Assembly (NCBI RefSeq): GCF_963921235.1
Contig: NC_086108.1
Coordinates: 74,092,001 to 74,156,000, forward strand
Direction of reading: 5' to 3'
Source of the DNA: Mobula hypostoma
Lineage: Eukaryota
DNA: 64,000 nt
The position numbers were made by a program, and so were the translations under genes. Below the pieces are notes generated by a model, which saw only the letters and a list, made by a program, of their open reading frames with translations, did not search any database and was not told the origin of the DNA. Shown in pieces: positions 2,696-33,936 of this stretch (its first letter is position 1; each line of letters begins with the position of its first letter).

Positions 2696-5180
2696 GACTC
2701 CCAAGATGTCTCTGTACATCAGCACTGTTAATGGTCTTACATTAAGTGCAAAAGGACAAGTCAAGGTTACTCTCCCAAAGTGCAACACCTCAAATTTGGC
2801 AGGATTAAACTCCATCTGCCAATCTTCCACCTTTACCACTATTTCACTTAGCAGATCTATATCCCTGTATCATTTAGCAATCTTTGACACTATCAACAAC
2901 ACCACCAATCTTTGGTATCAACTGCGAACTTACTAACCCACCCATCTACATTTTCACCCAGTTCATTTCATGACACATGCCGGTGATACTAAACCTGATT
3001 CTGATTCATTTATGTAAATCACCAACACGAAAGGTCCAGAATGGGATCATTGCAGAACACAAGTCATGGACTTCCAGCTGGTATCATTCTCAGCGACTAT
3101 TACCCTCTGTCTTCAACGGGCAAGCCAATTATGAATCCAAACAGACAAGTTACCATGGATTCGAAGCATCTTAAACTTCTGGAGGAGCCTCCCTTGACGG
3201 AACTTGTCAAATGCCTTGCTAAAAGCAACATCCACAGCTCTACGTTCATCAATCACCATCACCTCCTCAAAAATTGCCATCAAATTAGTAAGACCTGACT
3301 TGCCCCAAACAAAGCCATGCTGACTGTCCCTAATTAGCTCATGGTTTTCAAACTGTTCATAAACCCTCTATCTAACAAACCTCTTGAATAGTTTTCCTGC
3401 CATTGACATCAGTGTTCACTTTCCAAGATTATCTCAATTTTCTTCTTAAATAATGAAAGAACATTAGCTACTCACTGGTCCTTCATGATCTCTCCTGTGG
3501 CCAGAGAGGATACAAAGATCTTGGTCAAGGCTACAGTAATCTCACCTCTTGCCTCTCTCAATAACCTTCTGCATATCTTATCAGAGCTGGGGGACTTAAC
3601 CGCCTTAATGTTCTTTAATGGTCTAACACTATCACCTCCTTTATCTCAAAATGCTCAGCAAATTAGCACACTCCACTCTGATCCCCACGAGAGGTTTCAG
3701 TGGTCCAAGAACCTGCAACCTGCACCCTGCACCAGATACTCAGACACACAATCATCTGCTCTATCTTCATATATCTGCCATAACTAGCAAAAGGCAACAG
3801 CAGTATTCCAGAGATACTATCTTTGAGGTATTGCTTTTTGGCCTCTTTCCTAACTCTCTATACTCACTGTGCAGGACCGCTTCCCCCTTTCTACTCACGT
3901 TTTTGGGCCAAGTCATCGAGCAACAGAGTATAGATACAAGCTCCTTGGTCCAGTAAGTCATGCTAACCATGGTGCACACAGAAGCTCGTCCCAATTTCCT
4001 GCATTCAAACATATCCCTTACCATCCACCTTATCACAATTTCAAACACTTCAATAAACTCACCCTTCAATATTCTATTTTCCAAGGAAAAAAGACCTAGC
4101 CTCTGCAACTTCTGTCTAGAACTCAGGCCCTGCTATCATGGCAACAGCCTCAAATCATTACTTCACTCTTTCAAATTAACCATACCTTTCCAATAACAGC
4201 ATGACCAAAACTGTACACAGTACTCCCAGTGTGGCCTCACCAATGACTTAGATAACTGCAACATAATGTCCCAGTTCCCTTACTCAGTGCCCTGATTAAT
4301 GATGGTAAGTGTGTTAAATGCCTTTTTCCTCATCCTGTGTACATATGGAGCCACTTTCAACAAACTACACACTTGTACCTCTCAGTCCCTCTGTTCCAGC
4401 ACACTCCCCAGAGCACAACTATTCATAGTATCAGACCTACACCGGCTTGACCTCTCAAAATACATTACCTCACCCATATCTGTACTGAAATCCATTTGCC
4501 ACTCCTTGACTCACTCCCCTAAGTGATCAAAATCCCCCTATAATCTGCAATAACCTTTTTTACTATCATCATTTTAAAATTTTGTATCATCCAGAAACTT
4601 AGTAATCAAACCTTTTGCATTTGCAATCAAATCAGATTAAAATAACAATAACAAGGGTCCCAATACCGACTCCTATAGTGTATCACTTGTCATCAACCTC
4701 CCTTCCAAGAAACAACCTTTTTTTAAATCAATTTTTATGCGTTTCTACATAGAGCTACAGGAAATAAAATCAACAAAATGGCGATTTATACAGTGCAAAG
4801 CAAACATGTCCAATATATAATTCATAACAATAAAAAAAGCACCCAAAATAAAATCATGCAAGATTAGTATCCACCCCAGCCTCCCACTGAAAAAAAACCC
4901 AGGCCAACTATTTGTGTATTAAAGAAAAAAATTAATCGGAGCATTCAACCCCACAGAGCTGTAAGTATATATAAGAAAAAGGAAAACATAATGCAAGAAA
5001 CAACCTTCAACAACCACCCCTTGCTTCCTACCTCCAAGCTAATTTGGTATCCACCTAACTTTCCCTGGATTTCATGGAAGCTAACCTTCCAGATCAGCCT
5101 ACTATGCAGGACTTTGTTAAAGGCCTTGCTGAAGTTCCAGACAGACAACATCCCCAGCCCTATGGTTACCTCCTCAAAAA
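2696..5180 (-). mobile_element. Decayed CR1 LINE fragments (several copies), with an unrelated A-rich LINE-tail-like insert near 4720-4990
   Basis: Minus-strand peptides RLGLFSLENRILKGEFIEVFEI and FSKAFNKVLHSRLIWKV, typical of CR1 RT. Confidence 0.65.
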
Positions 5181-6717: not shown

Positions 6718-6948
6718 AACAACAGGAATTCTGCAGATGCTGGAAATTCAAGCAACACACATCAAAGTTGCTGGTGAACGCAGCAGGCCAGGCAGCATCT
6801 ATAGGAAGAGGTGCAGTCAACGTTTCAGGCCGAGACCCTTCGTCAGGACTAACTGAAGGAAGGGTCTCGGCCTGAAACGTCGACTGCACCTCTTCCTATA
6901 GATGCTGCCTGGCCTGCTGCGTTCACCAGCAACTTTGATGTGTGTTGC
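6718..6948. mobile_element. Young Penelope-like-element-derived hairpin retroposon
   Basis: 92-bp inverted arms (6750-6841 / 6859-6950, one mismatch) around a 17-nt loop; 16-bp direct repeat ttctatagaatacata at 6702-6717 and 6949-6964. Confidence 0.75.
6815..6850 (-). ncRNA. Minimal type-I hammerhead ribozyme motif (Penelope-type)
   Basis: Minus strand AGUC-CUGACGA-A-GGGU(CUCG)GCCU-GAAAC-GUU-GACU: helix I AGUC/GACU, conserved CUGANGA and GAAA boxes, palindromic AACGUU in place of helix III, NUH cleavage triplet. Confidence 0.65.
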
Positions 6949-6984
6949 TTCTATAGAATACATAGTAAGATCACATTCATCCAG

Positions 6985-9959: not shown

Positions 9960-10716
9960 ACCACCAACATATCACCTGTGGATCTAACTGAGCCAACAAA
10001 CTTGATCACTGTTATACCACCATCAAGAACACTTACTGCGCTATCCCACACCCACATTTTGGAAAATCCAGTCACCTGGCTGTACTTCTACTCCCAACAT
10101 ATAGGCAGAGAATCAAGACCACAGCACCAGTGGTGAGGACCAAGAAGGTATGGTCAAAGGAGACAGAGGAGCACTTTTAAAACTGCTTTGAGTCAGTGGA
10201 ATTCACAATATTCAAAGAATCATTTTTGAATTGAAATGAATAGGCCATAGTTGTCACCAACTTTGTCAAGACCTTTACCTTCAAGAACATACTGAACATA
10301 CCCAAGCCAAAATCTGTAGATGAACCAGAACCAGGAGATTCATAGTCTGATAAATCTATGGCATTCAAGACCAGTGATCCAGAATGATACAAGAAGTCCA
10401 GGTACAACCTACCGGAAAGCTATTTTAACAGTGAAAAAACAAATTGATTGAAGTTCGAGATGGAATTGGATGCATGTCAGCTCTGCCAGGGTTTGCAGGC
10501 AATTACTTGCAACAGGGCAAAACCTTTCATCATGAATGGCTGTGATGATCAAAGTTCAAAGTCTGCAGCATCTGGTGACCCTGTGATCTCTGTTGTGGAG
10601 GCCGATGTCAGAACATCTATCAAGAAGGTCGAACCCTCGCAAATATCAGGCTCTGATGATATTCCTGATAGGGCATTGAAAACGTGTGCCAACCAACTGG
10701 CAGAAGTGTTCAAAGA
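9960..10716 (+). mobile_element. Rex1/Babar-type LINE, 5' part (host of the LTR insertion)
   Basis: Peptide GSDDIPDRALKTCANQLAEVFKD breaks at aaaga (10712-10716) and resumes as catcttcaat (IFN) after 17500. Confidence 0.8.
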
Positions 10717-10916
10717 TGTATCGTATAGCCTCCATTATAATAAGGGACTACTTTATGTTTTAGTAACGTGTCGTTGCATTCACTGTTAGGTGCGTATTGA
10801 TCTGTATGTGTGTGCTGAGTTCGGACTGTTTGCCAGTAAAGAACCATGAAACTTAGCTCCCGTCTCCAGCATTTTTATTAATAACATTGTTGTGTAACCA
10901 GGCCACGTACACAACA
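10717..10916 (+). repeat. 5' LTR
   Basis: Direct repeat of 17274-17495, followed by the PBS. Confidence 0.9.
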
Positions 10917-10978
10917 AATTGGCGACGAGGTTAATGAACCTATATCTTATCAGAATGCAGTGTTTTAGTTGATAATGA

Positions 10979-11146
10979 CACTCGGAGAAAAAGCGCAAGG
11001 TACGAGCCATGGAGTGGGAGAAGAAGGCAGAGCGAGGCCGTGACTCCGAAAGGAAGCAGGAGCACAGCCACGGTCGGGAACGTTGGGAGACCAAGAGACA
11101 CAGTCGGAGCCGCAGCATGTCCAGGCAAGACCACAGCCGGCGCTGA
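10979..11146 (+). pseudogene. ACIN1: Host-derived RS-rich fragment resembling the C-terminus of Acinus (ACIN1), in the element leader
   Basis: Frame reads HSEKKRKVRAMEWEKKAERGRDSERKQEHSHGRERWETKRHSRSRSMSRQDHSRR* (TGA 11144-11146); resembles the recalled ACIN1 tail (..EREKEAER..KRREHSR..RRDTKRHSRSRSRST..RR*); W/Q/H/M residues fit CpG decay of R/T codons. Confidence 0.55.
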
Positions 11147-11349
11147 CTCCCAGGGCTGAGGGTCTGCCTGCCCCACACATCTAGACGGAGTGCGCTCATG
11201 GCGCTAGCAAAAAGGACACGTGAGTCAAAAAGAAAACAAGGGGAAAATGGGGCTAAATTAACATAACAAAGATGGCGATGATTGGAACCATTACAGCATT
11301 TGATAATGGCATTGAAGACTGGGCAACTTACATTGAGAGAGTGGAGTTA

Positions 11350-13283
11350 CAGTGGCATGCAAAAGTCGGACACCCCTGTTCAAAATTTCTGTTACTGTGA
11401 ATAGTTAAGCGAGTAAAAGATGAACTGATTTCCAAAAGTCATAAAGTTGAAGATGACACATTTCTTTAATATTTTAAGCAAGAAAACTTTTTTATTTCCA
11501 CCTTTTACACTTTCAAAATAACAAAAAAAGTTTGGGCACCCTGCATGGCAGTACTTAGCAACACCCCCTTTGGCAAGTATCACAGCTTGTAAACTCTTTT
11601 TGTAGCCAGTTAAGAGTCTTTCAATTCTTGTTTGGAGGATTTTCGCCCATTCTTTCTTGCAAAAGGCTTCTAGTTCAGTGAGATTCTTGGGCCATCTTGC
11701 ATGCACTGCTCTTTTGAGGTCTATCCAAAGATTCGCGATGATGTTTAGATCAGGGGACTGTGAGGGCCATGGCAAAACCTTCAGCTTGCACCTCTTGAGG
11801 TAGGGTATTGTGGATTTTGAGGTGTGTTTAGGATCATTATCCTGTTGTAGAAGCCATCCATCTGATGGACTTTTACCACTGTACCATTGAGAGCATACTC
11901 ACCAACTGCATCTCAGTGTGGTATGGCAATTGTCCCGTATCGGACCGCAAAGCACTCCAGCATGTGATGAAAACTGCCCAGCAGATTATCGGCACCCAGT
12001 TGCCCAACATTGAGAACATCTACCATAAACGCTGCCTGGGCAGGGCAAAAAGCATTATCAAGGATGCATCTCACCCTAACTATGGACATTTTACTCTCCT
12101 CCCATCCGGTAGGCGCTACAGGAGCCTCTACTCCCGCACCAGCAGGCACAGGAAGAGCTTCTTCCCTGAGGCTGTGACCCTGCTGAACCTCATCACATTG
12201 TTAAGCAGCATTGCACCCATATTGTACTGTCTCAGTACTTTTATATTTGGGTGCTGTAGCACTTACTTTTTATTCGCAGTTATTTTATAAATAACACTAT
12301 TCTTTGCATTTCTGGTCAGATGCTAACTGCATTTCATTGGTTTTGTATATGTACTCGGCACAATGACAATAAAGTTGAATTTAATCCAATCTAATTAATC
12401 CTCTTTTCATCTTCAGCTTTTTTTACAGATGGTGTGATGTTTGCTTCCAGAATTTGCTGGTATTTAATTGAATTCATTCTTCCCTCTACCAGTACCGTGC
12501 CACTGGTTGCAATACAAGCCCAAAGCATGATCGATCCATCCCCATGCTTAACGGTTGGAGAGGGGTTCTTTTCATTAAATTTTGCACTCTTTTTTTCTCC
12601 AATGAACCTTTGCTCATTGCGGCCAAAAAGTTCTATTCAAAAGGTTCAAAGGAACATCTAAACAAGCCTGATACATTTTAGAAATAAGTCCTGTGGACTG
12701 ATGAAGTTAAAATAGAACTTTCAAAAAAGTCTCTAAAAAAGCTGAAGATGAAAAGCGGATGACATCTACAACAGGATAATGATCCTAAACATCCCTCAAA
12801 ATCCACAATGGACGACTTCAAGAGGCACAAGCTGAAGGTTTTGCCATGGCCCTCACAGTCCCCCGACCTAAACATCATCTAGAATCTGTGGATAGACCTC
12901 AAAAGAGCTGTGCATGCAAGAAGCCCAAGAATCTCACAGACCTAGAAGCCTCTTGCAAGGAAGAATGGGCGAAAATCCCCCAAACAAGAATTGAAAGACT
13001 CTTAGTTGGCTACAAAAAGTGTTTACAAGCTGTGATACTTGCCAAAGGGGGCATTACTAAGTACTGCCATACAGGGTGCCCAAACTTTTGCTTCAGGCCC
13101 TTTTCCTTTTTTGTTATTTTGAAAGTGTAAAAGATGGAAATAAAGAAGTTTTCTTGCTTAAAATATTAAAGAAATGTGTCATCTTTAACTTTATGCCTTT
13201 TGGCTCAGTTCATCTTTTAATCGCTTAGCTATTCACAGTAAGAGAAATTTTGACCGGGGTGCCCAAACTTTTGCATGCCACTG
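11350..13283. mobile_element. Tc1/mariner foldback derivative: two transposase 3' halves in inverted orientation
   Basis: Termini cagtggcatgcaaaag / cttttgcatgccactg; TA duplication at 11348-49 and 13284-85; WPSQSPDLN motif region on minus (11392-11775) and its mirror on plus (~12845-13070); QQDNDPKH region on plus. Confidence 0.85.
11862..12397 (+). mobile_element. Rex1/Babar-type LINE 3' fragment nested in the Tc1 element
   Basis: ORF 11865-12290 FYHCTIESILTNCISVWYGN...LLPSGRRYRSL; tail caataaagttgaat(ctaat)n-like. Confidence 0.8.
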
Positions 13284-13727
13284 TATATTGTGAGGCTAAC
13301 AGTGTTAATGATGAAAAGAAAGCCAGCGTCTTACTCAGGCTACGTCCACACTACACCGGATAATTTTGAAAACACCTGTTTCGTGTAAAAACGACAGGCA
13401 TCCACACTAGACGTTTTTCCAAATATCTCTGTCCACACTAAAACAGATGTTTGGGCGAATCTACTCCTACTGTGCATGCGCAGACACATCTACAGAAAAC
13501 AAGCGAAGAGGAAACGGTATAATATTTACATTTCCGCGGCGGCGTTGTGCTATTTCCATTGGTCAAAAACTCGAGTACCTACAACAACAGTGAAAGAAAG
13601 TTTTCAACAATGTCTTCAAGGAATACAAAGAAAACTGGGAAAGACAGACTGGACTTCTTCGTTTAGACAATGAAGTCGAGCTGTTTCTGCGAGTTACAAA
13701 TGACTACAAAGTCAGCAAATCAGTGGA

Positions 13728-14128
13728 GATGTTTAATTCTAAACCAGCTATTAACATAGACAATAAAGTAAACAACACACGCAAAAAGCCATCGTCTACC
13801 CAAGATCAACAATTACAGAATGTTAAATGGTCAACTCGACATAGACTACCAATCCCACATCAAACCCAAACCTATTAGGAGCAGAAGAGGGCACTCAACT
13901 CAATTTGAAACACTAACTACCAAGTCAGATGTGTACGGCAATTCATTTTCCCCCCGCACAATTAAAGCATGAAATAATCTTAATCCTAACACAGTCACAC
14001 AACCAAACCCAGTTAAATTTAAGGTAGATTTTCTTCTTCAAAAACCTCCTTCTTCAGCCCACCCTCTGCCACCTTCAGTTTAAATCCCATGCGGAATATT
14101 TTGGAGGATCAAGAACCAAGAACCAAGA
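13728..14128 (+). mobile_element. 5'-truncated LINE (CR1/L2/Crack-like) with (CCAAGAA)n tail
   Basis: RT C-terminal remnant ...SFFPRTIKA*NNL; TSD cagtgga at 13721-27 and 14129-35. Confidence 0.65.
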
Positions 14129-14282
14129 CAGTGGAATCTTCTGCCGCCAGACCTGCGCAGTATTTCTGACATTATTATTTTTAAAGATGGACTCAATCAA
14201 TTTTGGGGATCTAGTCAAAAAAGCTCACTTTACAATTGAACTCTCATGCCATTCACACCGACTGCACGTTATAACAGCGGTG

Positions 14283-14475
14283 GTCAGTCAGTGCCGGCTT
14301 AGAGACCCCAGGGTACAGGAGATCGAGGGTACGACCACCGCAAACTTGGAGACCGGAGAGTACGGACAGAAGAACAGAGGATGCAAACAGAGATACCAAG
14401 GGAACCAGCTTGAAAGCCACGTCCAGTTTAAATTCCATGCGGAATATTTTGGAGGATCAAGAACCAAGAACCAAG
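14283..14475 (+). mobile_element. SINE with a tRNA-like head and the same 3' tail as the adjacent LINE
   Basis: TSD aacagc(g/a)gtg at 14273-82 and 14476-85; B-box-like gagggtacgaccaccg; ~52-bp tail nearly identical to 14076-14128. Confidence 0.6.
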
Positions 14476-15798
14476 AACAGCAGTGCTTGTGCGGTACCAA
14501 GCAGAAGCAGAAAAAGCATTGTTGTTGTGGTGTTGTCACGACAATGTTTTTAAATCTCTCCGTTTACCCTGTCTACACTACAATGCGAAACAATCACTTT
14601 CAAATTTGCACACCCTGGAGAGTGTTTTCAAAAATCTCTGTTTTCAGGGGATAAAAATGCCGTTTCAGTGTGGACAGAAGGTCAAAACGAAGAGAAAAAG
14701 CTTCATTTTCAATATTATCCAGTGTAGTGTGGATGTAGCCTCAGTATTAATGGGAGCAAAAACAGATGGGCTGCTATGGAGCTTGTTAACCCCTGAAAAG
14801 CCAGCTGGCAAAACATTCAAGCAACTAGTAGACACTCTCCAACAGCATTTAAACCCCAAACCACTGGTCATTGCTGAAAGATTTAAATTTCACAAATGGA
14901 ATCAGAGCAAAAATGAAAGCATTTATGAATATTGTGCTGAATTGTGCAAATTATCAGAACATTGTCAATTTGGAGCTGGTCTATTGGACGCATTGAGGGA
15001 CAGGTTAGTGTGTGGCAGGCACTGTAAAACCACAGAGAAGAAGCTCCTGGGTGAAAAAGACCTTTCATTAGAGAAGGTGCTGAACATTACAATGTCAACG
15101 GAAACAGCAGTACAGGGTGCTTCAGAGATACAACAAAAATCTCTGGAGTATGCTACGAATAAAATGTCACTGAACAGAAATGAAGGAAAGAAATGTTACC
15201 TTTGTGACCCTGATGACTATTGGTTTAAAGACAAAGAATGTAGAAACTGTGGCAAACAGGGCCACATTGGCAGAGTATGCAAAGCTAGTAAACAGCAGAA
15301 AAAGGACAAAATACAGAAAAAGAAGAAACCCTGGAAAGGAAAGCACAACAATGTACACAAAATGGAAGAAAGCAGATCTGATGAAAACGACTCAGACGAA
15401 AGTGAATTGCCTTGTCTGCAACTTCACAGCATGAAAGAGACAGATGATTGAAGACTATAAGGATCTCTCCACAAGTGGCGGGCATGATACTGAAAATGGA
15501 GTTGGACACAAGCTCAAATTTAACAGTGATCTGTACACGATTACAAATGACTGTTTTCTCACATACCTCTGAAACGAACTAAACTACTGCTAAAGACTTA
15601 CACAGGACAAAAAGTGCGTCCCAAAGGTAAAATTAAAGTGATAGTGACCTACCGAGATAAAAGACAGACAGCTGAACCTCTACGTACTGAAAAATACCCA
15701 CCGTAGCTGGGACATGAATGGCTCAGGAAAATCCAGTTCGATTGGCACACCATCAAGGCCTAGATGTGTCAACAAAGGAGGGCAGCTCAGCGGGGAAG

Positions 15799-16710
15799 AT
15801 GTCCGCAGCTCTCCTCTCACCCATTTTCAACTATTACAATGACGAGGAAGAGCTAGACAGTGTCGATGATGACGAACGCAGTATCCATGGTCGCGAATCG
15901 GATGAAGATACAGAGGATGCAAGTGAGACAGATATTGCCAATAAGCAGGATGATGAAGACTACCTGGAAGTAAAAGAGCAGATGTACCAGGAGAAATTGA
16001 CATCTCTCAAAAGACAGCTACAGCAGTTACAGGAAGGCACTTTGCAGGAGTATCAGAAAAGGATGAAGAAACTAGATTAACAATACAAGAAAAGAATACG
16101 AAATGCAGAGCTTTTTCTGCAACTGGAGACAGAACAAGTGGAAAGGAATTAAAGAGAAAAAAGCAGCAGTGAAAGAATTTGAAGATTAAAAAGATTTGAG
16201 TTAGAAGAAAAGAAAAAGATGATTGAGAATGAGAGGCTATCAATGGAACTCACAGGAGATTCTATGGAGTTAAAGCCAATAATGACTAGGAAACTAAGGA
16301 GGAGATCTAATGACCGTGCTTCCATTACAGACAAAAGACGAAAACCTGCACCTGCGCAGTTAAATTACTTGTTAACAGGTGAACAGATAATGGAAGATCT
16401 GCAAACTCTCAATAAGCTTAAATCTCCTGAGCATCTTCCCAGCACTCCTGCTGAACAACCAGCACAAAGACATGAAGCACGAATAGAAGATGGAAAGTTA
16501 TATCATGAGAGGAGATGGTATCATAAAGGTCAGGCTATCTATTTGGAATCTAAGGAGAATATGAAGATTGGCTGTATAATTAGCTCAGTTGGAACAAATG
16601 AGATATGGGTAAGGAAGACAAGTGATAGCACAAAGGTACGTATATATCTAGGACAGCTGCACAGAGGAGTCTTCATTATACGGAGGCGATCTGCTGCCCA
16701 GAACTCTTAG
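15799..16710 (+). pseudogene. SUDS3: Processed (intronless) SUDS3 copy, Sin3/HDAC corepressor subunit SDS3; probable 3'UTR continues to ~17040
   Basis: MSAALLSP...[14 protein letters not shown]...[34 protein letters not shown]; ...IMTRKLRRR...[10 protein letters not shown]...[10 protein letters not shown]...[20 protein letters not shown]...IRRRSAA; premature stop 16078-16080, frameshift near 16150, internal deletions. Confidence 0.95.
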
Positions 16711-17273
16711 CAAGTTGGAGGCGCACATCTTCTTAACTCCCTATGCTCAGAGGTCAACTTTTCATTACTTTTAGGTGGAAATCTGCATTAAAATAAACAA
16801 GTTTATTGACAGACTGAAGAACACACTATTTGAAGACACTTTACAATGCCATTCTCAGTTTTGATGATTGTACATGTTTTTAAGAATAACATTCACCTTT
16901 TCACGGGTTTCACTTTGCTTTCATCATCTTTGCACGATGGAGGTGACTACTCTTTATGGCTGGAACCTGCCAGTTTGTGGATTGCTTAATTTATTCCAGA
17001 CAACAAAGTGAGACCTATTTGCTTCAGTGCCGGACAATCTAGAGAAGACCCCCCCCCCCGAGACTTGAGTTATAAATGGGTCTTAGACCAAAAGTTAAAA
17101 AAAAGGCTTGTTATAATTCGATATTATTATGTTACTTTGTTATAATTTGATATTATTAAGTTGCTAAGTAAACAAATGGTAGGCATTTGTATGTTAAGGT
17201 AAACATATTTGTTTAGCATAATGCCCCAGTAAAAAAAAACAGTTGATACACTATTGAAATAAAAGGGGAGGAG

Positions 17274-17495
17274 TGTACCATATAGCCTACATTGTAGTAA
17301 GGGACTGCTTTATGTTTTAGTAACACGTCGTTGCATGCGCTATTAGGCGTGTATGGAGCATGCACTATTAGGTGCGTATTGATCTGTATGTGTGTGTCAA
17401 GTTCGGACTCTGCCAGTAAAGAACCATGAAACTTAGCTCCTGTCTCCAGTGTTTTTATTAATAGCATTTTTGTGTACCAGGCCACATACACAACA
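17274..17495 (+). repeat. 3' LTR, with an extra ~25-bp internal tandem unit
   Basis: Preceded by the PPT, followed by TSD aaaga at 17496-17500. Confidence 0.9.
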
Positions 17496-17500
17496 AAAGA

Positions 17501-26968: not shown

Positions 26969-27978
26969 TATACAACCCTGAGATTAATTTTCTTGCAGAC
27001 ATACTCAATAAATACAGTAACCATAATATTATCAATGAAAGACCACACCATCTGGGCATACAACCATTGTGCAAAAGACAACAAACTGCAAATACTAAAA
27101 GAAAAAAGAAATAATAATAATTTATTTATTTATAGATAAACACATAGATAAATAAATAAGCAATATATCAAGATGAAGATTCTTTGAAAGTGAGTCCATA
27201 GATGTGAGAACATCTCAGTGTAACATGCTGTAGGGTTTCACTGCTGTGTAACATGCTGTAAGGTTTCACTGAAAACGTAATGGGTTCTCTGTAGCAGCAA
27301 TGTTTGGGTTATGACTAGAGATAACGGTGTTTGGAATGCTGTTGTTCTTTCTTGTGAGCTGGAACAGAGATTTTCGCGGTCTTTTGCCAGGGAGAGATGA
27401 GGAGAGAAGACGCGAATGGAGGGAGTTGGTAGACCGCCAGACGGGTGGACTTGGAGCGAGGGTCCGAAGGGCAGCGAAGATCGGAGGAGGTCAATGGTGG
27501 CCGATAGGCTTATCAGTGAGCTCCAACGTTGCGGAACAGACTGTTTAATAAGATTGGACCCTTTTTCTGTTATTTTCGTTTCTTTACTAAGTATATAGTC
27601 AAAGTAAGAATTATAAAGCTTAATCGCATATTCTGTACTGTTTGTTATTTTGGGTACTGATTTGTAATGGGGCCACATTGTGCCGCATCCACCCAAACGA
27701 GATTTCTTAAGTTTGGCCGGGCCAGGGGCTATCATATCCTATATTAAGCCGCAAGCCAAAGCGAGAGTTAAAATTGTGGGGGCTATGTTCAGGATTGATT
27801 CTATTGGATGTTGTGTGATTACCCTGAGCAATGAACCAATGGGGCAGATATTTGCACTCCGGATGAATTGTTAATTCCACTGTTAAGTACTGTTGAAGTT
27901 GCGATTGTGGGTGGAGGTTTGATAAAATGGCCAACGCCGCTCTAGTTTCTGAGGAGTGAGGGGAAAGAGTGGTCGAAT

Positions 27979-28876
27979 TTGGAATGTCTAATTAGTCCAC
28001 GTCCCCTGGTGAAGAGTGAGAATTCTGAGTTAGTATCCACCCTTACTTCTCTGGCGAATAAATGGAAAAATCAGATTCAAAGTCCCAGCTATGGCAGGCT
28101 CCGCCAGTTCTCTGGAATAACAACAACCCCTAAAGGGGAGGAGGAGCATGAGAGATGGGCGGAGCAGACCTTTCAGTTGTTGGGTGAGTGGCAGTGCTCT
28201 GATAATGAAAAGCAACAGAGATTGTTTGAAAGTTTGAATGGGCGGGCCGCTGACATTGTGAGAGCTGTCAGGTTGAAATCTGTCAATTACATGCAAGCAC
28301 TGGACAATGCTTTCAGCCCAACTGGAAGCCCAATGGAGTTCATGGTGGGGTTTCAGAACATGCATCAGGAGAAGGGGGAGAAGCTTTCTGCTTTGATTTT
28401 TCAGCTAGAGAGGCAGCTAAATTGCTTGCGGCGCAGAGGGGTCATTCAGGCAGCCGAGGTGGATCTGTTAAGAATGGACCAGATAGCCAGGGTCCCCCAG
28501 TCCCATGACCTGATTGCTTGGGGTCTCCGACAGTCTCGTAAGACGTGCCCCCACTTTCCCTTTTGTTGAGCTGATCAGAGAGGTACGGGAAGAGGAGAAC
28601 ACGGCGGAGGCGCGGGAGGACTCCGTCAGCAGGGTACAGTCCTCGGTAGTGGTCCCTTGCGGTGAAGTGACCACAGATAGCCTACCCCAGGGAGCAGTAG
28701 AGGAGGTTGTGGCAGAGTTGAGAATGGAGATATATCGACTGTTATCAGCGGGTGTGACCCCCCCCCCATATGATGGAGCTGATGGGGGGGCGGATTCCCC
28801 AAGGGGACGAACAATGCGGAGGGCTGCTGGCAGCAGGTGTCACACCAGAAGGAGAGTGAGCCCCCCGGGTACCTAA
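27979..28876 (+). pseudogene. Gypsy gag (PNMA/MOAP1-like capsid), frameshifted
   Basis: YGRLRQFSG...GEEEHERWAEQ...EWQCSDNEKQQRLFESLNGRAADIVR...QEKGEKLSA. Confidence 0.8.
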
Positions 28877-29004
28877 GCAGAAAGTCATTGGGAAAACCCA
28901 GGGGAGACCCAGTGAGGGAACGTCCTGATGTCTCTGGGGGAGCATGTTCCTAGCAATGTACCAAGGAACCCCTGAAAGCAAAAGACCCAATTCCTGAAGG
29001 CTTA

Positions 29005-32000
29005 GTGGGACCATGCTCCAGTGTGTCGCTACGAATAGAGGCTATTTATGCTGAAGCCACACTTGACCTCGGGTTGCAGGTCACGTTGTTGTACCATTCA
29101 TTTTACATCCGGTGTCTGAAGCATTTACCATTGACACCATTCAGATCTGGGGGCTTAGTGCTGGTGATTATCCATACAATGGTTATTTGTCAGTGAAGTT
29201 GGAGTTCTCGGAGGCCGATGTGGGAGTGTCTGAGGTCCTTGATACATTGGTGCTGGTTTGTCCAGACCCTGCTGAGAAGAGCGGTGTTCCAATTCTGGTA
29301 GGGACCAACACCCCTCTTGTGAAGAGGCTCGTGGGGGCCTGCAAGGAGAAAGCTGGCGAGAGCTTTCTGGGGACATTGCCTGTGCACCCAGGGTTTTGAG
29401 CTGCTTTTGAGGAAGTGTGTGGCAGCATTGGGCCAGATACCGAATTTAAATGAGGGACTGTGTGGTTTACCCAATCGAAGCCAATGGTGGTACGGCCCGG
29501 GGAAGTAGCAAGAGTGATGGGGACCACCAAATTTCCCAGAGTGCCTGAGGGTGAAGCCCACTTAGTGGATGCTCCAGAAGACTATGAGGGGGAGTGGGGA
29601 TTTCCTGCTGGGGTACAGGTGAGGCCCAAATTGCAGAAGCCCTTGGTTGTACAGGAACACAGGATGGCAGTGACTGTCAGGAACACTACAAAGAGGGAGG
29701 TCACCTTCAAGCAGGGGATGCCTCTGGCGCATTTGTTCCCGGTGACGGTAATGTCTGGTGCCCCTGTGAGACACGCTGGGGAGAAACTATTGGAAAAGGG
29801 GAGGAAAGTTGACCGCTGAGTCATTCAACTTTGGAGTCTCCCCGGTTCCTGTAGATTGGAAGAGGAGGCTGGTAGAGAAGATGTTGAAGCTGGAAGGTGT
29901 CTTTTCCACTGACAAGTTTGATGTGGGTTGTTCCAAGAGCACACGTCACACTATCTGGGTGACTGAGGATATCCTGTTCAGAGAAAGATTGCGGCGATTG
30001 GCCCCTGAAGAGGTTTTGCAGCATTTCTGTATGTTGAAGGAAGCTGGGATCATCACCGAGTCCCGAAGCCCCTAGTAGTGGCCCAAAAGGAGAATGGGAA
30101 GGTACGGATGTATGTGGGCTATAGGACTTTCAACAGGTGCACCATCCCTGATCTGTGTACTGTCCCGAGGATTGAAGGTGCGCTGGCCTGCCTGAGTGGT
30201 GCGAAGTGGTTCAGTGTGCTGGACTTGAGGAGTGGATATTACCAGATCCCCATGAATGAGGCCAACAAAGAGAAAATGGCATTTATATGTTCCCTAGGAT
30301 TTTTCCAGTTTGAAAGGATGCCCCAGGGCATTTCAGGAGCTCCTGCAACCTTCCGGCAGGTCATGGAGAAGACCCTGGGGGATATGAACTTGCTTGAGGT
30401 ATTGGTATATCTGGATGACCTCATAGTATTTGGATCCACCTTGGAAGAACAAGAAGTGAGGCTGCTGAAGGTGCTGGGTCACCTGAAAGCAGAAGGGTTA
30501 AAACTTTCCCTGGACAAGTGCCAGTTCTGCCAAAAGTCTGTTAGCTATGTTGGGCGCATAGTCTCATGGGATGGGGTAGTTACAGACCCAGCTAAGATCG
30601 AGGCCGTTACCACTTGGCCAAGACCCCAGACTGTGAGTGCTCTGGGCTCATTCCTCAGATTCTGTGGTTACTATCGGAGGTTTGTGAAAGGCTACACGAA
30701 ATGCATCACCCTTTGAATCAGCTTCTGTGTGGTTACCCTCCCTTGGGGAACAAAGGGAGGGGGAGAAAGGACAGGAGTGTGGAGAGTATCTTAGCCTGTC
30801 AGAGCCCTTTGGACCAAGGTGGGATGCAAAATGTGAGGAGGCCTTTCAGCCTCTGAAGGAGCTGCTGACCCAAGCGCCGGTGCTGGCTTTTGCGGACCCC
30901 CGATTCCCATATGTACTGCACACGGATGCCAGCCGAGAGGGCTTAGGGGGTGTCCTGTATCAGGATCAGGGCTCCGGATTGAGGCCCGTTGCATTTGTCA
31001 GCCGGAGACTGTCGCCCTCCGAGAAAAACTATCCCATGCACAAGTTGGAATTTCTGGCATTGAAATGGGCGGTGGTGGATAAGCTGAGTGACTACCTCTA
31101 CAGGGCCAAGTTTGAGGTGAGGACGGACAACAACCCCCTAACTTATATCCTGACCTCGGCGAAACTGGATGCCACAGGCCATCGGTGGTTGGCGGCGTTG
31201 TCTGCCTATGATTTCAGCCTGAAGTACCAGCTGGGGAGCTGGAACATTAATGCAGATGCTTTGTCCCGACGGGTGCATGAGGGACTAGACAGAGACAAGG
31301 AGTGGGAGAGCATTCCTGCCCTGGGGGTGAAGGCCCTGTGTCAGTTTGCCATCACCATGAAGGCAGAGAAAAAGGAGGGGCAAGAGTGAGTGGTGGATCA
31401 ACTGAGGGCTTCTGATGATGCCATCCCCCCAAGTTTATTGTAACCTGACAGCTCTGAAGACAAATCAACTTCTGGAATTGAGTTCTGGGGAAGGGGCAGC
31501 TGCTCAGCGAGATGATCCGGACATTGATCCCATTTGGGCGGCAGTTGAAAAGGGAGACATGGCTCAGGTGGAGAGGACGAAATATGCGTCAGTGCCTCCG
31601 TTACTACAAGAATGGCCTCAGTTGAAGTTGAAGAACCAGATCTTATACCGGGTCACGTCACTGCCAGACCGACCCCGGCGTTGCCAGCTTGTTCTGCCCG
31701 AGAAGTATCGGAGGATGGCATTAAAATCACTTCATGATGACTCTGGACATTCGGGGGTGGAAAAGACCTATGGATTGCTGAGAGACCGGTTTTACTGGCC
31801 CTGAATGAAGTTGGAGGTTGAAGAATACTGCAAGTCATGCATTCAAAGCATACGGCGGAAGACACTGCCTACACGGGTAGCTCCCTTGTCCCACATGCAG
31901 AGTGCGGGGCCTCTGGACCTGGTGTGTATGGATTTCCTGTCAATAGAATCTGATGCCAGCAACACGGTGAAATTCTTAGTCATCACAGACCACTACACCA

Positions 32001-33250
32001 GATATGCTCAGGCTTTTCCTACCAAGGACCAGACGGCGTCTACGGTGGCAAAAGTGTTATGGGAGAAGTATTTCATTTATTTTGGACTTCCCAGGTGAAT
32101 ACATAGTGATCAGGGACAGGATTTCGAGAGCAGACTCATCCGTGAGTTACTGGGCATGCTTGGAGTCGAGGTCGAGGACCATGCCCTATCACCCATGGGG
32201 TGATCCCCAGCCAGGGAGCTTTAATTCGACCTTGTTAGACATGCTTGGGACCCTGCAGATCAGCAAGAAGAGCAGGTGGAGTCAACATATTGGGTACCTG
32301 GTTCACAGTTATAATTGTACACAAAATGAAGCCACTGGGTACTCGCCATATTATCTGATGTTCGGGCGCGAGGCAAGGTTGCCCATTGACCTTTGTTTTG
32401 GGACTGACAAGGGTGACTTACCACCGAAGACTTATCTGAAGTATGTGCCTGACATGAGAAGAGAGTTGAAAAGGACTTATGAATTAGCTGGGGTCGCGGC
32501 TGCCCAGCAGAATCAAGGGAATAAGAGGAGGTATGATCAAAAGGTGAGGTTCTTTCAACTCCAGCCAGGAGACAGAGTCCTCATAAGGAATTTGGGGCTA
32601 CCTGGAAAGCATAAGTTGGCTGACTGTTGGGCGGCCACACCCTATGTGGTGGAGTCAGATGCCAAACCTACCAGTTTTCTGGGTGAAACCAGAGGATGGG
32701 AATGGGCCTGTAAAGATTCTCCATCGGAGCCACCTGTTGCCCCTGGGACAAGAGGTGCAGGTAGACCCAGAGCCCAACTTGGAGACTATACCTAGTAAGA
32801 GGACTCTGCGGAAATGCAGGGTGACTACTGGGCCCCCAACAGGTGGGGTTAGGCCGTCCCCCACCCTTGAGAGGGATATTGATTCGGAGGATGAGGACCT
32901 GGATGTGTGGTATATGCTGCCTTTTGCTAACTCCCCATTGATTACGGAAGAGACTCCCGGCCTTTCTCCCATTGAGACAGGTGAAGTGGTGGGGGGGTGC
33001 TATCTGTGGGCAGCCTGGGTTGCAGCGGGACTCTGCAGGGGAGGAGGCGGGGTTTGATCACAGGACAGAGGGCTCCGAGTTGCAGGTGGGCACGAGTGAT
33101 AGATCGGGGGAGGCCTCGCCAGACGGACTGGAAGTATCCCCAGTAGTGTCGGAACCTGAAGAGTTAGATGATGGAGTGCGGAGGTCTCAGAGAATTAGGA
33201 GGCCACTGGATAGGTTGGCCTACGTAGCACCAAGGGAACAGAGTGCGACC
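29005..33250 (+). pseudogene. Gypsy pol (protease, RT, RNase H, integrase) with multiple stops and frameshifts
   Basis: FSVLDLRSGYYQI, RMPQGISGAPATF, VYLDDLIVF, LHTDASREGLGGVL, RTDNNPL, HDDSGH...C..C, VCMDFL, GYSPYYLMFGREARLP. Confidence 0.9.
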
Positions 33251-33936
33251 CCTACTGTGCTGTGGAGCTATGTCACTGCCTTTTACACCTGGATTGGGCT
33301 TTGTGTTTTGCAGGAAGGGTTGGCAAATTATCTCAACGTCATGAGGACATGACTAAATTTGGTGGGGGGGGAGTGTAACATGCTGTAGGGTTTCACTGCT
33401 GTGTAACATGCTGTAATGTTTCACTGATAATGTAATGGTATCTCTGTAGGAGCAATGTTTGAGTTATGACTAGAGATAGCGGGGTTTGGAATGCTGTTGT
33501 TCTTTCTTGTGAGCTGAAAGAGAGATTTTCACGGTCTTTTGCCAGGGAGAGATGAGGAGAGAAGACGCGAATGGAGGGTGTGGGTAGACCGCTGGACAGG
33601 GTGGAGTTAGAGCGAGGATCTGAAGGGCAGCGATGATCGGAGGAGGGCGTTGGTGGACGATCGGCTTATCAGTGAGCTCCAACATTGAGCAATAGACTGT
33701 TTAATAAGATTGGGCCCTTTTTTCCCTTTTTCGTTTCTTTACTAACCATATAGTCAAAGTAAGAATTATAAAGCTTAATCATTTAATCACATGTTGTGTA
33801 CTGTTTGTTATTCTGGGTACTGCTTTGTAACAGGGGACACATTGTGCAGCGCCCACCCAAACGAGATTTCTTAAGTGTGGCCAGGCCGGGAGCTATCACC
33901 CCCTATCTTAAGCTGCAAGTCGAAGCAAGAGTTACA

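What the first reader, a model, noticed from the sequence alone, without database searches (positions are those of the whole stretch)
10979..11190. Second host-gene-like fragment (ACIN1 C-terminus) in the leader of the same LTR element
Between the PBS and the gag ATG is a GC/purine-rich frame, too short for the ORF track, ending ...KAERGRDSERKQEHSHGRERWETKRHSRSRSMSRQDHSRR*. Reversing CpG-type changes gives EREKKAERGRDSERKREHSRGRERRETKRHSRSRSTSRRDRSRR*, close to the recalled Acinus tail (KRREHSR...RRDTKRHSRSRSRST...RR*). This suggests the family captures host mRNA repeatedly. Acinus binds SAP18, a Sin3-associated protein, in the ASAP complex, so both cargoes touch the Sin3 network. That link may be coincidence.
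Basis: partly seen in the sequence, partly recalled or inferred. Interest (0 to 1): 0.7.

Follow-up and report, generated by a model that had tools for sequence, protein, structure and literature searches.

The report
Jumping gene carrying host ACIN1 tail
A ray jumping-gene family carries a 190-base piece of the host ACIN1 gene's last exon in its front untranslated region, in copies with and without their own copying enzymes; it was likely picked up once from the host's mRNA and is probably a passenger that makes no protein.

Summary
Confirmed. Window 10985-11175 is 86% identical to the end of the host ACIN1 last exon, through the stop and 30 bases of 3'UTR. It sits between the PBS and gag of a decayed Ty3/Gypsy element and recurs in at least 149 other places. 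Empty-site relatives and a sister family lack it, so it is an insertion, with about 6 bases of microsimilarity at its 5' junction. It also rides in full-length gag-pol copies (14 of 24 scorable pol-picked copies). All 22 SUDS3 copies with a readable leader carry it, so it likely came before the SUDS3 capture. Contigs from another species hold both junctions. It is probably non-coding: no shared start, shared frameshifts, near-neutral decay, and no SAP18-binding motif. A further cargo is antisense RNF213, so the Sin3 link is unsupported. This scan had already reported the family's SUDS3, RNF213 and RPS8 cargoes on other DNA; my look-ups found no earlier ACIN1 note. Known mechanism, unusual position.

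The parts
10712..10716 (+). Left copy of the 5-base target-site duplication (right copy 17496-17500)
10717..10916 (+). 5' LTR (TG...CA); K2P distance 0.11 to the 3' LTR
10920..10930 (+). Primer-binding site; a tRNA-Ser match is recalled, not tested
10931..10984 (+). Native leader, 5' part, shared with empty-site copies
10985..11146 (+). Captured ACIN1 last-exon coding tail including its stop codon, sense orientation; one 12-base repeat unit shorter than the host; ATG at 11009 seen only in this copy among the 27 leaders aligned
11147..11175 (+). Captured first 30 bases of the ACIN1 3'UTR
11176..11271 (+). Native leader, 3' part; this copy lacks about 30 bases right after the 3' junction that most relatives have
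11272..11347 (+). Start of gag, broken by later insertions
11348..14743 (.). Nested later insertions: an element with long inverted arms (11348-13285; Tc1-like label recalled) holding a LINE-like piece, plus other repeats
14744..15776 (+). Rest of gag (weak zinc-knuckle match, below cut-off) and protease region, broken by stops and frameshifts
15777..17043 (+). Spliced SUDS3 cDNA (12 host exons spread over 59 kb, plus part of the 3'UTR) in place of RT, RNase H and integrase
17044..17273 (+). Element 3' untranslated region ending in a polypurine tract
17274..17495 (+). 3' LTR

Best explanation
The stretch is a 190-base piece of the host ACIN1 last exon inserted in the 5' leader of a Ty3/Gypsy retrotransposon family; it likely entered once, by a template switch onto co-packaged ACIN1 mRNA in a copy that still had its own enzymes, and has probably ridden along since as a non-coding passenger. 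Shown: host origin, insertion point, the same junctions across copies, presence in gag-pol copies and in SUDS3 copies. Inferred: reverse transcriptase jumped between the element RNA and the ACIN1 mRNA at a roughly 6-base purine-rich match on the 5' side and a 1-base match on the 3' side, replacing under 10 bases of leader. The PBS, the rest of the leader and gag-pol were untouched, so the chimera could keep copying itself. Recombination between co-packaged genomes likely spread the leader over several pol lineages. One ACIN1-bearing lineage later lost RT, RNase H and integrase to a SUDS3 cDNA and multiplied with borrowed enzymes; the window holds one dead copy of that lineage.
For: Empty versus filled leaders align on both sides of the insert (8 empty, 19 filled including the window). 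No ACIN1 match in 8 of 8 sister-family loci, 5 of which have a readable short leader. Of 40 gag-picked copies, 30 have the piece, 8 lack it, 2 have no readable leader; all 22 SUDS3 copies with a leader have it. None of 30 empty-leader loci shows SUDS3; 23 show the start of pol and 7 are uninformative. Of 32 RNase-H-picked family copies, 14 have it, 10 lack it, 8 are unscorable; ACIN1-bearing L085, L189 and L190 hold protease, RT, RNase H and integrase domains between them. Against coding: 29 of 63 copies are out of frame and 16 more have stops; shared indels that break the frame occur in several copies each; low-frequency changes are close to neutral (transversions 0.0077 synonymous, 0.0074 non-synonymous; transitions 0.048 and 0.031). 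Of 6 near-fixed synonymous differences from the host, 4 are shared with the ACIN1 mRNA contigs of three other organisms, so they arose in the host. No excess RNA structure (z 0.2 to 2.0). CpG retention at shared sites does not differ between classes (p about 0.5).
Against: The piece lies inside one exon with no splice junction and no poly(A), so an RNA template is inferred, not shown. The trees are star-like (2 starred branches each); the ACIN1 label needs 4 to 5 changes, so neither a single origin nor the order of captures is shown by them. The two element-specific near-fixed changes are both synonymous and synonymous transitions exceed non-synonymous ones by about 1.5 times, so brief coding constraint is not excluded. 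The 3' half of the insert is present in all 19 filled leaders aligned while the 5' half tolerates large deletions. Raw CpG density in gag was higher in ACIN1-bearing copies (p 0.017) before the shared-site control.
Confidence: 0.75

Rival explanations
1. The insert was kept because it helps the element RNA in cis, for example as a purine-rich binding site for splicing or export factors, a packaging aid, or a splice donor that lets the SUDS3 cargo be made from a shorter spliced RNA.
For: It is in 30 of 38 scorable gag-picked copies. An NCBI gene model, P0148, starts inside the insert in another frame and joins a GT donor there to an acceptor just before SUDS3 in locus L127. Contigs of runs that appear to be RNA hold the chimeric leader.
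Against: Only 3 of 63 copies have that GT donor. The predicted joint is not among the 15 joints shown for four runs; 23 more were not shown. Empty-leader copies are about as old (mean LTR distance 0.114, n=7, against 0.118, n=12, and 0.083, n=7) and make up 10 of 24 scorable pol-picked copies. No excess structure.
Confidence: 0.12
2. The insert is counter-defence: small RNAs made against the element also hit ACIN1, a gene that in flies supports piwi splicing, or the host spares elements that resemble an essential gene.
For: Acinus and RnpS1 aid splicing of a piwi intron in Drosophila (PMC4197968, abstract and passages). Gene capture creating silencing cross-talk is described in maize (10.1101/777037, start of abstract only). 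Other cargoes of the family (SUDS3, antisense RNF213) are also silencing or defence genes (roles recalled).
Against: No methylation-footprint difference at shared CpG sites in gag (22 sites) or pol (36 sites), p 0.50 and 0.55. The insert has itself lost 41% of host-matching CpGs (506 of 861 kept). Earlier scan notes list RPS8 as another cargo (not tested here), which fits capture of abundant mRNAs. No small-RNA data seen.
Confidence: 0.07
3. The piece was copied from genomic DNA into an integrated element during double-strand-break repair, not from mRNA during reverse transcription.
For: No exon junction or poly(A) in the piece; the 3' junction has only one shared base.
Against: It is sense-strand and wholly exonic, and the same family demonstrably captured spliced mRNA (SUDS3, 12 exons joined). 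The 5' microsimilarity is close to the 6-base median of Tan et al. 2016 (section 5 read).
Confidence: 0.05
4. The match is a chance resemblance between arginine/serine-rich low-complexity sequences.
For: The peptide is low in complexity and matches no Pfam family.
Against: 86% DNA identity including the non-coding 3'UTR; score 228 against at most 36 in shuffles; with the exon plus UTR as query, all 39 listed non-self hits cover only the captured interval.
Confidence: 0.01

Closest known systems
LTR-mediated retrocopies of animals (Tan et al. 2016, PMC5131818; 12 passages and section 5 read)
   Same: Partial host mRNA inside an LTR element, no poly(A), short microsimilarity at a junction, several parental genes in one element, secondary copying with shared junctions.
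   Different: In their 15 Drosophila cases part of the element's ORFs was replaced every time. Here the piece sits in the leader, replaces under 10 bases, and occurs in full-length gag-pol copies; it is present in at least 149 other places rather than a few.
Maize Bs1 (as described in PMC5131818, passages read)
   Same: One LTR element combining pieces of several host genes and re-amplified with shared switch points.
   Different: Bs1 has 1 to 5 copies and its pieces form a chimeric gene; the ACIN1 piece shows no sign of being translated.
Transducing retroviruses with gag-onc fusions, and replication-competent Rous sarcoma virus with src (recalled, not checked here)
   Same: Host sequence gained during reverse transcription; SUDS3 is in frame with gag-protease in several copies; a host piece carried without losing pol.
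   Different: No env seen in the copies examined; the ACIN1 piece is a non-coding leader fragment, not an expressed gene.

Membership tests
ACIN1-derived sequence | DNA match to the genome's own ACIN1 last exon, continuing into the 3'UTR | tested here: met
Ty3/Gypsy LTR retrotransposon | TG...CA LTRs, PBS, polypurine tract and target-site duplication | tested here: met
Ty3/Gypsy LTR retrotransposon | Domain order protease, RT, RNase H, integrase | tested here: met
   Shown on family copies L085, L189 and L190 taken together; the window copy lacks RT, RNase H and integrase
Ty3/Gypsy LTR retrotransposon | Placement in a named lineage (Mag-like, recalled) by RT phylogeny | not tested
   No named reference elements were fetched
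LTR-mediated retrocopy (Tan et al. 2016) | Host exonic sequence flanked by element sequence on both sides, no poly(A) | tested here: met
LTR-mediated retrocopy (Tan et al. 2016) | Microsimilarity at the switch points | tested here: inconclusive
   About 6 bases at the 5' side, in purine-rich sequence where chance matches are likely, and 1 base at the 3' side; no simulation run
LTR-mediated retrocopy (Tan et al. 2016) | Loss of introns proving an RNA template | tested here: inconclusive
   The piece lies in one exon; met for the SUDS3 cargo
LTR-mediated retrocopy (Tan et al. 2016) | Part of the element's ORFs replaced | tested here: not met
   The insert is in the leader; gag-pol copies carry it. 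It works like this class but differs in this respect
LTR-mediated retrocopy (Tan et al. 2016) | Secondary amplification with shared junctions | tested here: met
   3' junction motif in 58 of 77 distinct copies
Functional Acinus/ASAP or Sin3-linked cargo | Contains the RNPS1/SAP18-binding motif and a conserved translatable frame | tested here: not met
   Motif found once in the genome, in the previous host exon; no shared start, 29 of 63 copies out of frame

The most novel reading that the evidence does not exclude
The ACIN1 tail was selected as a counter-defence or cis-acting module: a self-copying vertebrate retrotransposon took a piece of a splicing factor's mRNA into its leader, which helped it spread (through small RNAs that dampen ACIN1, or through better export or packaging), and this made the lineage a platform for later captures of SUDS3 and RNF213.
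Probability: 0.1. Interest if true: 0.85.

Novelty: new variant of a known kind. Interest (0 to 1): 0.5.

Why it matters
It shows a vertebrate LTR retrotransposon taking up host exon sequence in its leader without giving up gag-pol, a layout absent from the 15 fly cases of the main animal survey. With empty, filled and double-cargo forms all in one genome, the family is a dated series for studying serial gene capture. The insert also preserves ancestral ACIN1 bases that the host has since changed. The family helps explain why SUDS3 is listed among top retrocopy sources in cartilaginous fishes (10.64898/2026.06.26.734816, passages read), a paper that links retrocopy numbers to non-LTR elements.

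Tried and rejected
Low-complexity artefact: rejected. Longer ACIN1 captures: none among 39 listed non-self hits to the exon plus 3'UTR (40 of 457 candidates scored) and no second copy of the upstream motif exon. Coding constraint from the 6 synonymous versus 0 non-synonymous near-fixed differences: mostly explained by host-lineage change. Dating by synonymous distance: 6 of 33 sites for ACIN1 against 11 of 192 for SUDS3 (p 0.024) fits an older ACIN1 capture but is confounded by GC3 of 0.87 versus 0.42. Methylation escape: the raw gag signal (p 0.017) vanished at shared sites. RNA structure in the insert: none beyond shuffles. Trees did not resolve order; L090, which lacks pol, was grouped with the pol class in the gag tree. 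and one search used a wrong reading frame and are superseded (the junction and donor counts do not depend on frame). No RNA holder is on record as RNA; the runs are guesses, contigs only, so expression level and strand were not measured. Literature: searches found no paper on this capture; a 2026 ray genome preprint has no mention of ACIN1, SUDS3 or RNF213 in its main text. bioRxiv supplements were closed and subscription papers are not searched, so repeat libraries or supplementary retrocopy tables may list it.

Full report
Observation. The frame at 10979-11146 is as described. It lies in an LTR element with LTRs at 10717-10916 and 17274-17495, a PBS at 10920, gag from 11272 and a 5-base target-site duplication. 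The copy is dead: gag is split by 3.4 kb of later insertions and the LTRs differ by K2P 0.11.

Host origin. The Pfam family for the RNPS1/SAP18-binding motif matched one place in the genome. The exon before it is 99% identical to a ray protein named ACIN1. The gene's last exon matches window 10996-11176 at 85.7% over 182 bases, E 4e-55 in 40 kb; over 10984-11175, 165 of 191 positions agree, including the stop and 30 bases of 3'UTR. Codon shuffles score at most 36 against 228. The ACIN1 tail is conserved in other vertebrates, so the transfer went from host to element.

Family. All 30 loci fetched with the leader as query match the exon. A search with a 41-residue reading of the insert listed 150 matches of 382 candidates, one being the host gene, so there are at least 149 copies; the exon as DNA query gave 457 candidates, 40 scored. 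Of 40 gag-picked copies, 30 have the insert, 8 lack it and 2 have no readable leader. Of the 30, 22 carry SUDS3, 7 have a pol-length interior and 1 has an internal deletion. Of 32 RNase-H-picked family copies, 14 have it, 10 lack it and 8 are unscorable. ACIN1-bearing copies hold protease, RT, RNase H and integrase domains. None of 30 empty-leader loci shows SUDS3; 23 show pol and 7 are uninformative. A sister family at about 70% RNase H identity shows no ACIN1 match in 8 of 8 loci, 5 with readable short leaders.

Junctions. Empty and filled leaders align on both sides. The insert replaces under 10 bases of a GA-rich stretch, with about 6 shared bases on the 5' side and 1 on the 3' side. A 3' junction motif is seen in 58 of 77 distinct copies. 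Deletions of 12, 15 and about 36 bases between short direct repeats mark sub-lineages, as expected of reverse-transcriptase slippage (recalled). This fits the template-switch model of Tan et al. 2016 (PMC5131818; passages and section 5 read), except that all their 15 fly cases lost part of the element's ORFs.

Age and order. Six synonymous and no non-synonymous differences from the host are near-fixed over 46 codons. Four of the six, one more coding site just upstream and one UTR site carry the element's base in the spliced ACIN1 contigs of organisms E, F and G, so the host changed after the capture; two are element-specific. Run X11 (organism E) has loose ends matching both chimeric junctions, plus contigs with the empty leader and SUDS3 lacking the same 24 bases as the cargo. 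Run X14 shows element-type bases; none of the 5 records laid from X13 does, which shows nothing about absence. So both captures predate the split from organism E, or the family moved horizontally. ACIN1 before SUDS3 is inferred from nesting (22 of 22; 0 of 23 informative empty-leader loci), weakly backed by synonymous distance (p 0.024, confounded by GC content). Trees are star-like and do not prove it; the insert needs 4 to 5 changes, which suggests recombination. LTR distances overlap among classes.

Function. No shared in-frame start; the ATG at 11009 is seen only in this copy among the aligned leaders. Of 63 copies, 29 are out of frame, 16 are in frame with stops and 18 are open, and frame-breaking indels are shared by several copies. 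Low-frequency changes are near neutral, with a mild synonymous excess among transitions. There is no excess folding. Raw CpG density in gag was higher in ACIN1-bearing copies (p 0.017), but not at shared sites (p 0.50 gag, 0.55 pol). Gene model P0148 splices from a GT donor inside the insert of L127 to just before SUDS3; only 3 of 63 copies have that donor and the joint was not among the 15 shown of 38. The passenger reading is the best supported (0.75).

The Sin3 idea. Acinus, RnpS1 and SAP18 form ASAP, and Acinus aids piwi splicing in flies (PMC4197968, abstract and passages). But the captured piece lacks the SAP18-binding motif and shows no sign of translation. A further cargo, found in 5 of the 40 gag-picked copies and at about 40 listed places, is an antisense RNF213-like piece (E 1.4e-7 to solved RNF213). 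The link is most likely coincidence among abundant mRNAs.

Prior knowledge. Earlier notes of this scan describe the SUDS3, RNF213 and RPS8 cargoes on other copies; look-ups by words and by sequence found no ACIN1 note, though one note mentions two unnamed further genes. Paper searches found no report of this capture. A retrocopy preprint names SUDS3 as a top source in cartilaginous fishes and does not mention ACIN1 or Gypsy in its main text. bioRxiv supplements could not be seen.

Verdict. Real capture, known mechanism, unusual position in the leader of pol-bearing elements, no evidence of function. New variant of a known kind; interest 0.5.

Noticed in passing
window 15777-17043; host gene G000:C78:8380296-8439661 (-): Full SUDS3 coding sequence as spliced cDNA, in frame with gag-protease in several copies; the cargo lacks 24 bases of one exon; near-fixed differences from the host are 11 synonymous and 2 non-synonymous.
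   Followed up: partly
L083:3185-4000 and about 40 listed places: A sub-lineage has about 800 bases of RNF213-like sequence in antisense where the 3' half of SUDS3 would be.
   Followed up: partly
L118 (G000:C78:8398853-8395737): One host SUDS3 intron has AT-AC ends (minor-spliceosome type, label recalled) and is cleanly removed in the cargo.
   Followed up: no
L127 (reverse strand 1922-2044 joined to 3367-4275): NCBI gene model P0148 starts inside the ACIN1 insert in another frame and splices to SUDS3; whether RNA supports it is unknown.
   Followed up: partly
L127:6190-6531, run X11: Summed contig depth over element-type SUDS3 is far higher in organism E than elsewhere on the element (up to 5,500). 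The tool warns that this is a poor measure of expression.
   Followed up: no
window 11348-13285: Element with long inverted arms inserted in gag, itself holding a LINE-like piece near 11860-12390.
   Followed up: no
window 27217-33934: A second long direct-repeat pair about 6.2 kb apart with several ORFs between, probably another LTR element.
   Followed up: no
window 6750-6950: Near-perfect inverted repeat, 92-base arms, 99% complementary, 17 bases apart.
   Followed up: no
P0122-P0125, P0148, P0215: Several annotated 'SDS3-like' proteins of Mobula species lack the same 8 residues as the cargo, so public gene sets count element copies as genes.
   Followed up: partly
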